A DNA stretch of 63,813 nt, counting the filler, from Octopus bimaculoides (lineage: Eukaryota), in NCBI RefSeq assembly GCF_001194135.2. It is 4 parts of 4 records of this genome, joined end to end, with 100 filler letters (N's around TTAATTAATTAA, not from the genome) between each part and the next. Parts side by side here need not be neighbours in the genome. Positions count along the whole stretch, not along the records: positions 12,362 to 41,848 come from NC_068981.1; positions 41,949 to 55,149 come from NC_068983.1; 2 more parts are not named here. One strand, given 5' to 3'. The notes below the pieces were generated by a model that worked only from the letters and a program-made list of their open reading frames with translations, searched no databases and was not told where the DNA came from. Shown one piece after another: positions 12,588 to 54,110 of this stretch. A program made the translations under genes and the position numbers. Within the stretch, counting starts at the first letter, position 1; the number at the start of each line of letters is the position of its first letter.

Positions 12588-12655
12588 CCATAAGAGAACT
12601 CAGAGTTTCGGATGTCGGGTCGGAATTCTGCTCCGGCATCTCGTCAGTTATTAAG
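12588..12655 (-). ncRNA. Type-I hammerhead ribozyme motif, family 2 (copy b)
   Basis: Minus strand: AAUAA-CUGACGA-GAUG...CAUC-C-GAAA-CUCUGAG-UU; stem I 3' arm is degenerate. Confidence 0.65.
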
Positions 12656-13411
12656 ACAAAGAAAAATGCTATGAAAATGACCGCAATGAAACTATGAAAA
12701 TTTCTCCGCAATCAGTGTAATAGACTACAAGACACCACCCGCCTCAAATTTTAGATTTTGTGCCTATGTCAAAAATAATTTCGTGCTCTTCAACGAATCA
12801 TATCCTACCGTATATATTAATTCAATTGAATTCTTGTTATTTACGTCACATAACTAGATACGGAAATATCTTTCACCATCACGTGGCAAAAAAAAAAAAA
12901 TCAGCAGCGGTAAAGAAATAGTTTAACGTATACCATGTTTTCATGTTCATATATATATATATATATATATATATATATATGAAGATGACAGTTAAGACAA
13001 ACAAAAGAGCTATGAGAATGACCGTTAAATAAAGGGAAATTACCCGAATAGGAAGAAAGTAAAAATACTCGAAGGTAAACCCACGCTCATAGAATCCGCG
13101 TATGCGCGCATGTACATACATACATGCACATGCGCGCACGCACACCCAAGTGAATGTGCATATATGCATATGCTCACTCACATTCGTGTGGAACACATGC
13201 AAGCACGCCCACATATACACCTATATATATACATGCATATGCATGCATACACATGTACACATATACATACCTGCAAACACGCACATACACACGTATATAT
13301 ACCCATACGCGCACAATTATGTTCATATATACGTTTCTATACGCACATGCACAAATATTCGGGTAATTTCCCTTTATTTAACGGTCATTCTCATAGCTCT
13401 TTTGTTTGTCT

Positions 13412-13474
13412 TAATAACTGACGAGATGCCGGAGCAGAATTCCGCCCTGACATCCGAAAATCTGAGTTTTATTA
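13412..13474 (+). ncRNA. Type-I hammerhead ribozyme motif, family 2 (copy a)
   Basis: UAAUAA(13412) CUGACGA(13418) GAUG...CAUC C GAAA(13456) AUCUGAG U U UUAUUA; 6-bp stem I, one stem III mismatch. Confidence 0.7.
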
Positions 13475-51500: not shown

Positions 51501-53604
51501 GATTAAGTCTACCACAAGGTCTCAGCAGGATTTGAACTCAGAATACAAAGAGAAGGAACAAATAGCATAAGGTGTTCCGGCCGACGTTCAACGATTGCAC
51601 TAGTCCACTACTATACACACGTACTTTATTTAGCGACCACAGAAGGGTGAAAAACGTATTTGAATTATAGACTGAGACGCTTATAGTATGCAAATTAGCA
51701 GCTTCAGTTCTCTGAAGTTACTGCATGTATATACAAACCGATGGGCTGCTTGTTTCTATGGGATTGTTCAAGTGATGTAGACACCGCCGATGAGCCCTAA
51801 ATAAAAATCAAAAATCGATTAACGTTGCTTATAATTTTCTCAGTTTACGAAGAAATATGAGGGGAGGCTTTTAATTGCGTGTAGTCCGAAACCAAAGAGT
51901 GAAAAAGTCAACATTGTTTCCTTAATATATCCTTATTTTGTCCTTGTGCTACACAAGAAGACAAATGAGAATTTTACATCTCCATGGGAGAATGTTTTAT
52001 CGGTCTCTGTGCATAGACAATACATGTTTGACGTAATTTCTACCGTATTAACAATACGCCACTGAGAACGTACAAGAAACGATATGACTTTCTAATAACC
52101 GAAGTCCCTCACAATGTTAACGAGCTTTAATATCACGCCTTATTCAATGATAAATCACAGAAAAAAGATATTAATAAAATTTCACAAGTTACCAGGTTAA
52201 AATTAGTAGAAAAAGAGAAATGTGATGGTGTGATATATAAGCATAGGTAAACAATATTGGTAACCTAAATGGGGTGAATAGTTTCATTTAGGAACTGAAA
52301 CTGTCTCACAGCTTCATATTCTCTAGTTTTGGATTTGTGTTGCAACATAATGAGCGCAGACTTGACTGTGCAGAAACCCGTAGTATAAGTGCATACAAAC
52401 GTATGCACACACACACACACACACACACACATACATATATATATACATATATATATACAAGCATATACATATGCAATTGCAGCAGCGGCAACAGTAGTAG
52501 CAACAACAATAACTATAGCAGAAGCAGCAGCAGCAGTAGCAGCAGCAGCAGCAGCAGCAGCAGTAGTAGTAGTAGTAGTAGTAGTAGTAGTAGTAGTAAT
52601 AATAGTAGTAGTAGAATTAGTAGTAGTTAAAAAGGCAGAGGGAAAAATATCAAGTTATAACTTGTTTGTATTATAAGGTAATGTCGATTGTAAAAGCAAC
52701 ATAATTGTAGATATGACCAAAATACTTGTATGTGACTCGATTATTTAACATTTACCGAGAGTGTTCAGAAACTGATCACGACTGTAGTACTTCTTTCTTT
52801 GTAGATAATACAGTTTTGGACATGTAGCCGTCAAATTGCGATGAGTTATGCAATTATTGATATTCCATGTGGCTTGTTTTAATCAGATAGGGATACTAAA
52901 TATATACAAATAATTACATTTATACATGCACTTGCCTTCACACTCGTATACCCACATCCCACACACTCTCTCTCACACACACACACACACACACACATAA
53001 AATATATAAATGCATACATAATATATATAGGTACATATAAATGCGTAGAAGTGTTGTGCTTGTGTATATATACATGCGTGGGTGGGTGCGCGCGTGTGTG
53101 TATCTGTGTTTGTAAGTCACGTTTACATCGGCAGATATATATTTTTTTAAGTTTAAAATTGAGAAGTGCTTTCAACGTTTCGGGTAAAATACTTCTTCAA
53201 AGATAAAGAGAGATATTTTTCTTTCGTCCTTAATGTATGAGCACCTGGTCGCAGTAACAAACTGCAGGAATAGGAAGAGTGTTTGTGCTGGGAGAGAGAG
53301 AGAGAGAGAGAGAGAGAGAGAGAGAGAGAGAAAGAAAGAAAGAAAGATAGAAAGAAAGAAATAAAGAAAGGAAGAAAGAAAGAAAGAAAGAGCGAGAGAG
53401 AGAGAGAGAGAGAGAGAGAGAGAGAAAGAAAGGAAGAAAGAAAGAAAGTGGGAGAGGGAAGGAAAGAAAGAAAAAAAAGAAAGAAAGAGGGAGAGAGAGA
53501 GAGAGAACTGGTAGGAAAGAAAGAAGAGAGATTCAAGAGGATAAACTAGAATGAGATTAAAGAAGATAAACCTGCGAGAGATTAGGATAAGGCTATATGA
53601 GTAG

Positions 53605-54110
53605 TAAGCGTTACCAGATTTATAAGAATTCATATTCTGGAAACATTTTGAGTAAGAATCTCCTCAGGATAAATCAAGACAAAATTTTTGAGATCCTTAA
53701 AGAGACTGAATTATTCAATATACTTATTAATCAATTTATTAACATAATATTAATAATCCCTGCAATTGTTTCGATTCAAACTCAAAACCAATAACAAATT
53801 TATAAAAATTCATATTTGGGAAATATTTTGAGTAAAAATCTCATCAGGGTAATTCAGGACAAAAAGTTACATAGAAGTTTGAGATCCTTAAACAGACTGA
53901 ATTAATGAATCAATATATTGATTAATTCAATATTTTTAAGGATCTCAAACTTCTAATATGTAAATTTTTGTCCTGGTTTATACTGATGAGATTTTTACTC
54001 AAAATTTTTCCAAAGTCTGAATTTATATAAATAAGTTATTGGTCTTGAATTTGAATCGAAACGATTGTAAGAATTATGAATGTTATGTTAATAAATTAAC
54101 ATATATCAGT
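53605..54110. mobile_element. Direct plus inverted triplication of an HHR-bearing unit (family 5)
   Basis: Minus HHR at 53755-53852, plus HHR at 53978-54075 (CUGAUGA 53983, GAUU/AAUC, GAAA 54058, GUA 54067-69), partial copy at 53605-53740. Confidence 0.7.

What the first reader, a model, noticed from the sequence alone, without database searches (positions are those of the whole stretch)
12588..54075. About ten type-I hammerhead ribozymes in five families, carried by PLE-type/retrozyme-like elements at (TA)n tracts
Complete or near-complete HHR folds (CUGANGA core, stem II, GAAA, short palindromic stem III, NUH triplet, stem I) can be read at 12588(-), 13412(+), 19000(+), 20309(+), 23562(-), 27680(-), 40418(+), 40813(-), 42054(+), 53755(-) and 53978(+). 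The five families share the fold but not the sequence. Four PLE GIY-YIG fragments lie in the same window, and PLEs are known to carry minimal type-I HHRs with palindromic stem III that cleave as dimers. The inference is a diverse community of small ribozyme-bearing retroelements mobilised by PLE machinery. ORF and protein-homology annotation would not show it.
Basis: partly seen in the sequence, partly recalled or inferred. Interest (0 to 1): 0.85.

Follow-up and report, generated by a model that had tools for sequence, protein, structure and literature searches.

The report
Penelope-derived hammerhead repeats, mostly decayed
This animal DNA holds five families of short repeats with hammerhead-ribozyme folds, likely leftover ends or miniature passengers of Penelope-like retrotransposons (a known association); most copies are decayed, and one very abundant family has a fixed change in the catalytic core that is predicted to weaken cutting.

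Summary
The hammerheads are real but overstated. All 11 listed sites carry recognisable type-I hammerhead (HHR) parts in five unrelated families (A-E), and I found three more partial or decayed copies. Only 4 of 11 pass a fold descriptor (shuffles: 0.35 per window): B at 19005 and 42059, A at 40423, and D at 40844. No Rfam family reaches its threshold. A covariance model built from HHRs of Hydra-clade Penelope-like elements (PLEs) in other animals hits B (E 8e-7) and A (E 7e-4). Five decayed Hydra-clade ORF pieces lie in the window, but none runs directly into a listed HHR. PLE-borne minimal HHRs, dimer cleavage and (TA)n targeting are all published, including for an octopus Hydra element. The less ordinary part is family D: a ~190-nt element with about 10,000 matching contigs per DNA run. 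Its core reads CUGUUGA (A6U), and no other letter reaches 5% at that position. D RNA is abundant on both strands, with no read-end pile-up at the cut site. Verdict: new members of a known kind. D offers a test of whether cleavage is needed for spread.

The parts
12566..12705 (-). Family A copy A1; HHR C3 12647, H17 12597; proximal stem I broken
12992..13050 (-). Inverted 59-bp partial copy of the 5' end of A2 (100% identical), no HHR core
13356..13500 (+). Family A copy A2; C3 13418, H17 13468; C15.2->A; long stem I; ends in (TA)n
40367..40507 (+). Family A copy A3; intact type-I HHR, C3 40423, H17 40476, stem III ACUCUGAGU; one extra C before GAAA, shared by all three A copies
   Evidence: (22 bits, E 7e-4)
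18894..19208 (+). Family B copy B1, (TA)n on both sides; intact Hydra-type HHR, C3 19005, H17 19083, long stem II, palindromic stem III ACGUGCGU
   Evidence: (31.6 bits, E 8e-7)
41949..42250 (+). Family B copy B2, 97.5% identical to B1; intact HHR, C3 42059, H17 42137; 5' end at an assembly gap
17723..18050 (-).
   Evidence: score 206 against shuffle maximum 111
18759..19315 (+). Inverted partial copy of B0 (18759-18864 and 19256-19315, core at 19263), interrupted by B1
   Evidence: inference from the alignment
20305..20424 (+). Family C, single copy; C3 20313, H17 20352; 7-bp stem II, palindromic stem III, broken stem I; tail to (TA)n; 5' end not defined
   Evidence: not significant (E 2.3)
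23470..23660 (-). Family D copy D1; min-HHR with A6U, C3 23594, H17 23568; 1-nt insertion in stem I
27590..27790 (-). Family D copy D2 (diverged); C3 27712; A6U plus an extra A; 3-bp stem I; 5' end uncertain
40722..40909 (-). Family D copy D3, (TA)n on both sides; min-HHR UCUUU-CUGUUGA-A-GAGC/GCUC-GAAA-CG-UC-AAAGA; C3 40844, H17 40818
53600..54100 (.). Family E: partial tandem of a ~180-bp unit on - (cores 53847, 53667) plus an inverted copy on + (core 53983); long stem II; all decayed; not at (TA)n
3801..3980 (+). Hydra-clade PLE endonuclease C-terminal fragment
   Evidence: (33.8 bits)
8280..8990 (+). Hydra-clade PLE linker and endonuclease fragment, broken
   Evidence: (55.8 bits)
10710..11091 (-). 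Hydra-clade PLE endonuclease fragment with CxxC and CxH motifs
   Evidence: 39 bits
26085..26713 (+). Hydra-clade PLE RT-thumb and linker fragment, frameshifted
   Evidence: 27.6 bits
39790..40015 (-). Hydra-clade PLE endonuclease C-terminal fragment, divergent from A3 and about 350 bp away
   Evidence: (37.5 bits)

Best explanation
These are 150-310-nt dispersed repeats with type-I hammerhead folds, likely ORF-less 3' ends (solo pLTRs or miniature non-autonomous derivatives) of several Penelope-like retrotransposon families, likely copied into (TA)n tracts by the RT-endonuclease of autonomous PLEs, and most copies have since decayed. Shown: the folds, the five families, the shared ends within families, the match of B and A to Hydra-clade hammerheads, the Hydra ORF remnants in the same window, and the high abundance and fixed A6U of D. 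Inferred: a PLE protein nicks (TA)n and reverse-transcribes the short RNA. Inferred: intact B and A ribozymes cut only as dimers, pairing their palindromic stem III, and slowly or with protein help as reported for other PLE hammerheads. Inferred: D spread while carrying a weakened ribozyme, so its fold would serve mainly as part of the RNA end that the PLE protein recognises.
For: Descriptor 4 hits against 0.35 per shuffle. 38 of 78 Hydra-ORF loci from metagenomes carry a sense-strand HHR, median 165 nt after the ORF match in the 27 measured. Their alignment covaries (12 of 14 pairs with double changes; the rows were picked by my descriptor). The model from them hits B1, B2 and A3 and nothing else below E 0.6. 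B has the U-UGC...GCA-U stem II signature listed for Hydra elements in PMC8557442 File S2. A3's stem III loop CTCTGAG recurs in L053 and L067. The Hydra clade is published as (TA)n-targeting with canonical HHRs. Five Hydra ORF pieces lie in the window. The B1 dimer hammerhead equals the cofold minimum (-52.2 kcal/mol), while the monomer fold is 3.6 above its minimum. Stem I of A3 and A2 shows a G-C/A-U swap. D fits the min-HHR consensus CUGANGAH-G...C-GAAAN-palindrome-NUH except at position 6; 0 of 25 chance motif matches in viral contigs form both stems. D coverage is similar over its 5' and 3' halves, and loose ends past its 5' end read (TA)n. HHR cleavage was dispensable for insertion in vitro in one Poseidon PLE (PMC11167929).
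Against: No HHR in the window directly follows a confirmed ORF. Regions upstream of B0, C, D1, D2, A1 and around E gave no protein match above reversed controls with Hydra or Neptune-like sets. The DNA link between A3 and the nearby Hydra 3' UTR is at shuffle level. C, D and E are not significant under the Hydra model, so their parent clade is unassigned. No whole genome was held, so autonomous partners were not found. For A3 and D3 the dimer hammerhead is 12-13 kcal/mol above the cofold minimum. Lower polymorphism inside D's HHR is not significant (0 of 32 against 10 of 129 positions, one-sided p 0.10). No cleavage was tested.
Confidence: 0.8

Rival explanations
1. They are true non-LTR retrozymes: master tandem arrays elsewhere are transcribed, self-cleave and circularise, and the circles (including a (TA)n spacer) template the dispersed monomers.
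For: RNA reads join D head to tail across a TA-rich spacer (4 of 6,212 laid reads) or as a partial tandem (8 reads). E is a ~180-bp tandem. Shared ends within families. Monomer offspring of retrozymes are described in bioRxiv 10.64898/2026.07.22.740005.
Against: The joints are rare and fit genomic tandems equally well. D reads lie on both strands about equally, depth is highest across the cut site, and no end pile-up is listed there. The HHRs are PLE-type minimal forms, not the canonical loop-loop type of published retrozymes. A, B, C and D occur as monomers or inverted pairs here. This rival overlaps with the main reading in needing PLE proteins.
Confidence: 0.2
2. They are merely random 5'-truncated ends of ordinary autonomous PLEs, not separate small elements.
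For: Most min-HHRs in metazoan genomes are single and were judged to be truncated PLEs (PMC4209133). Inverted partial copies at A2 and B0 are typical PLE insertion structures. C is a single copy.
Against: 5' ends cluster within families: D1 and D3 share one; A copies start about 55-62 nt before C3; the inverted B0 copy starts close to B1's 5' end. D depth shows no strong 5' fall-off until the edge of the stretch.
Confidence: 0.3
3. The motifs are chance folds in AT-rich, microsatellite-rich DNA.
For: No Rfam hit. Folding z-scores are weak for 6 of 8 sites. Seven of 11 sites fail the descriptor.
Against: Shuffle controls, an independent covariance model, family homology tying decayed copies to intact ones, and the motif control.
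Confidence: 0.03

Closest known systems
Hydra-clade PLE hammerheads (Craig et al. 2021, PMC8557442)
   Same: Type-I HHR near the 3' end, palindromic stem III of 8-9 nt, U-UGC...GCA-U or G-C stem II base, (TA)n insertion. An octopus member (Hydra-1_Obim) with an HHR is listed in the supplement.
   Different: Families A and B here are short and lack an ORF. B has a stem II region of about 60 nt, longer than any listed Hydra HHR. Sequence identity to the published element was not tested.
Minimal HHRs (min-HHR) of metazoan PLEs (Cervera and de la Pena 2014, PMC4209133)
   Same: D has the extra nucleotide after A9, the G10.1-C11.1 pair, the GAAA-CG-UH minimal palindrome, a U-rich 5' flank and dispersal as single copies.
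   Different: D has U at position 6. The readable rows of the paper's Figure S3 alignment all keep A6, and the only core covariation that paper reports is U3-A8.
Non-LTR retrozymes (Cervera and de la Pena 2020, PMC7229834; Li et al. 2026 preprint)
   Same: Non-coding, 150-450 nt, low GC, type-I HHR, proposed PLE dependence; monomer offspring are described.
   Different: Defined as tandem repeats with HHRs in consecutive units and circular RNA products. Here only E is tandem, and it is decayed. No circle is shown.
Natural position-6 core variant A6C of phage Bcep176 (PMC3088659, PMC7151607)
   Same: Natural pyrimidine at core position 6.
   Different: A6C in a phage ribozyme with low Mg2+ activity and a Mn2+ preference. 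Here A6U is fixed in a high-copy animal repeat, and its activity is unmeasured.

Membership tests
Type-I hammerhead ribozyme | CUGANGA core, GAAA, NUH and three stems | tested here: met
   Met by B1, B2 and A3; the other 8 of 11 fail at least one element
Type-I hammerhead ribozyme | Conserved A6 (family D) | tested here: not met
   U6 in 3 of 3 copies; no other letter at 5% or more at 40841 in 4 of 4 runs
Type-I hammerhead ribozyme | Self-cleavage after NUH | not testable with these tools
   No assay; RNA-seq shows no end pile-up at D's site, which fragmented libraries may not reveal
Rfam hammerhead families | Score at or above the gathering threshold | tested here: not met
Hydra-clade PLE | Hydra-type HHR near the 3' end | tested here: met
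   B and A3 match model R1; C, D and E do not
Hydra-clade PLE | Insertion in (TA)n | tested here: met
   8 of 11 3' ends; not E, weak for A1
Hydra-clade PLE | RT-EN ORF with RWK, DKT, CxCX5C, CxxC and CxH motifs in the same element | tested here: not met
   ORF pieces exist in the window (motifs seen in relatives) but none is contiguous with a listed HHR
PLE min-HHR | Extra nucleotide after A9, G10.1-C11.1 pair, palindromic 15.2-16.2 | tested here: met
   D1 and D3
PLE min-HHR | Dimer-dependent fold | tested here: inconclusive
   The dimer fold is the cofold minimum for B1 only; not for A3 or D3; prediction only
Non-LTR retrozyme | Tandem units, each with a complete HHR | tested here: not met
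   Only E is tandem and no E copy is complete; rare tandem joints for D in RNA; the rest of the genome was not available
Non-LTR retrozyme | Unit-length circular RNA | tested here: inconclusive
   4 head-to-tail reads of 6,212 cannot separate circles from genomic tandems
Non-LTR retrozyme | No protein coding | tested here: met
   No protein match in or beside the elements above controls

The most novel reading that the evidence does not exclude
Family D is a SINE-like miniature Penelope passenger that reached roughly 10^4-10^5 copies while its hammerhead was fixed for A6U. It would be a natural A6U ribozyme that is silent or conditional (Mn2+- or protein-dependent), and genome-scale evidence that the hammerhead fold, not cleavage, is what PLE mobilisation needs.
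Probability: 0.35. Interest if true: 0.55.

Novelty: new member of a known kind. Interest (0 to 1): 0.3.

Why it matters
Overall this adds families to a known class: PLE ends with minimal hammerheads are widespread in animals and are missed by Rfam. The useful part is family D. The role of PLE hammerheads is still open: one study found cleavage dispensable for insertion in vitro. A high-copy family fixed for a core change would test that in vivo, and B gives an intact, dimer-shaped control from the same genome. D sequences are also common in cellular RNA (about 250 reads per million), so whether they can cut host transcripts matters.

Tried and rejected
Rfam: no hammerhead family among the 150 of 273 rows shown, in two sub-regions or at gathering score; the miRNA rows are microsatellite artefacts. 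Reading D with a U3 core (UUGAAGA): rejected, because stem II and stem I then do not pair, while the A6U register gives 4 + 5 pairs. My first idea that B1's first 26 codons and 18050-18760 and 19500-20190 are PLE endonuclease ends (recalled motif): not supported by Pfam, the Hydra profile, the Neptune-like profile or tblastn against reversed controls. The atlas look-up for that region was not run, so its identity stays open. Homologue search with 8693-8956: none. D's motif in viral, metagenome and prokaryote collections: 0 matches. Neptune-like loci in viral contigs: none. A6U among HHRs in Hydra loci: 0 of 47 hits. Window families against the 78 loci by blastn: only short AT-rich matches. Other CUGANGA sites in the window: no fold. 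Earlier scan findings: nothing in 3 look-ups. ARAGORN: 0 tRNAs. Lunse et al. 2016/17 on PLE hammerhead variants is not held and may already include A6U forms. One Cervera supplement file could not be searched, and the preprint's supplements were not seen.

Full report
Setting. The window is a gapped animal scaffold: 34% GC, 5,084 N and dense microsatellites. No whole genome is held. Public runs of one coded organism hold the 40250-41150 stretch. I took the host for a cephalopod from recall of the repeat landscape; this is untested and was used only to steer literature searches.

Observation. Hammerhead parts are readable at all 11 listed sites and fall into five families. A descriptor allowing one core mismatch finds 4 intact folds: 19005+ and 42059+ (B), 40423+ (A) and 40844- (D). 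In 100 local dinucleotide shuffles it finds 0.35 per window, and 0.01 at score 22 or more, which three real hits reach. The other 7 of 11 are decayed, with broken stem I (A1, C, D1, D2, E3), a broken 15.2-16.2 pair (A2) or a lost NUH (E2). All three D copies read CUGUUGA-A rather than CUGANGA. Rfam reports nothing at gathering score and no hammerhead at E<=10 in two sub-regions. Eight of 11 3' ends lie within about 21 nt of (TA)4+, against a 7.2% background; the E copies do not.

PLE context. The fragment at 10719-11000- has 184 relatives at E<=0.001. Longer relatives show the RWK, DKT, CxCX5C, CxxC and CxH motifs that PMC8557442 section 11 (read) gives for the Hydra clade. A profile of 24 of them finds five pieces in the window at 27-56 bits, against 3.2 or less for reversed DNA. 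None runs into a listed HHR; the nearest is about 350 bp from A3 and divergent. Regions beside B0, C, D, A1 and E gave no match above controls with Hydra or Neptune-like proteins.

Independent model. Of 78 Hydra-ORF loci from metagenomes, 38 carry a sense-strand HHR. I aligned 33 distinct ones (identical repeats, opposite-strand hits and one minimal HHR were left out). They covary strongly, though my descriptor picked them. The model built from them hits B1 and B2 at E 8e-7 and A3 at E 7e-4; the next hit is E 0.67, and C, D, E and A2 are not significant. B shows the U-UGC...GCA-U stem II of Hydra elements tabulated in File S2 of that paper, which also lists an octopus Hydra element with an HHR and (TA)n preference (supplement parts). 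D instead fits the min-HHR consensus of PMC4209133 (parts 1-2 of the text and supplement part 2). It resembles the HHR-tail-(TA)n end behind a Neptune-like ORF in L051 (the clade name is my reading of motifs).

Folding. For B1 the double-hammerhead dimer is the cofold minimum (-52.2 kcal/mol, 8 of 8 stem III pairs), whereas the monomer fold is 3.6 kcal/mol above its minimum. For A3 and D3 the dimer fold is 12-13 kcal/mol above the minimum. These are predictions.

Family D in reads (four runs laid on 40724-40908 at 80% likeness). The two DNA runs give 9,275 and 10,687 matching contigs. Summed depth is about 2-3.5 million, against 48 for a long listed contig. The tool warns this is no copy number; together with 3 copies in about 59 kb it suggests an order of 10^4-10^5 (inference). 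No other letter reaches 5% at position 6 (40841) in any of the 4 runs. The only HHR position varying above 10% in DNA is H17 (C or U, both allowed). This lower variation is not significant (p 0.10). RNA runs give 3,177 and 3,035 reads (about 250 per million), on both strands about equally. Depth is highest across the cut site and no end pile-up is listed there. One abundant transcript carries an internally deleted copy. Four reads join the element head to tail over a TA-rich spacer and 8 show a partial tandem; these fit genomic tandems or circles. As a control, 0 of 25 chance matches to the A6U motif in viral contigs form both stems, and 0 of 47 HHR hits in Hydra loci have U6.

Mechanism. Most likely (0.8), these are ORF-less PLE ends or miniature derivatives, copied by PLE RT-endonuclease into (TA)n and mostly decayed. 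B and A are Hydra-type. D is a min-HHR type of unassigned clade. C and E are the least supported. Dimer cleavage by intact B and A is inferred from PMC4209133, which reports low activity in vitro. A natural A6C variant cleaves at under 0.1 per min and prefers Mn2+ (passages of PMC3088659 and PMC7151607), so A6U is predicted to be weak, but I found no measurement. In a Poseidon PLE, HHR mutants did not affect insertion in vitro and cleavage needed protein (passages of PMC11167929). This fits D spreading with a weakened core.

Novelty. The PLE-hammerhead link, the palindromic stem III, dispersal as single copies, (TA)n targeting and the derivation of retrozymes from PLEs are in print: PMC4209133; PMC8557442; passages of PMC7229834; parts 1-3 of bioRxiv 10.64898/2026.07.22.740005. 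Searches for hammerhead with A6U (listing only), with CUGUUGA (listing only), and with octopus or cephalopod showed no report of such a family. An octopus repeat annotation has no occurrence of 'ribozyme' (passages), and a squid genome paper counts 235 Rfam hammerheads (passage). The main paper on PLE hammerhead variants was not available. Verdict: new members of a known kind, interest 0.3. The fixed-A6U family D is the part worth following.

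Noticed in passing
window 59124-59421: A ~290-bp palindromic MITE-like element with long terminal inverted repeats and an internal (CCCTAA)n run, sitting in (TA)n.
   Followed up: partly
window 13716-13841: (TTAGGG)n followed by (CCCTAA)n, forming an inverted telomere-like repeat about 200 bp after HHR copy A2; similar to the run at 59245-59288.
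   Followed up: no
window 21953-22195, 29598-29912, 34750-35644: Tc1/mariner transposase fragments by Pfam; pieces at 1703-2728 and 46367-47360 look similar (recalled motifs, untested).
   Followed up: partly
window 11511-12260 (+): Frames that look like the RT C-terminus of an RTE-type LINE (recalled; Pfam gave no significant name).
   Followed up: partly
window 1-270, 7295-7508, 9914-10446, 45487-45595, 57711-57912: An abundant dispersed SINE-like family without a hammerhead, 79-92% identical between copies; ARAGORN finds no tRNA.
   Followed up: no
window 9842-10335: A 242-bp 100% identical duplication across a 10-N gap, probably an assembly artefact.
   Followed up: no
L005, L010, L029, L055, L067: Hydra-clade PLEs with the same hammerhead on both sides of the ORF (complete pLTR-ORF-pLTR units), usable as intact references.
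   Followed up: partly
L051 1-1500: A Neptune-like PLE end with a minimal hammerhead and a (TA)n tail, directly upstream of a Hydra-clade PLE: two PLE types stacked at one tract.
   Followed up: partly
RNA runs X21 and X22 on window 40830: One abundant transcript (268 and 178 reads) carries a family D copy lacking the 5' half of the hammerhead, probably a host transcript with a dead insertion.
   Followed up: no
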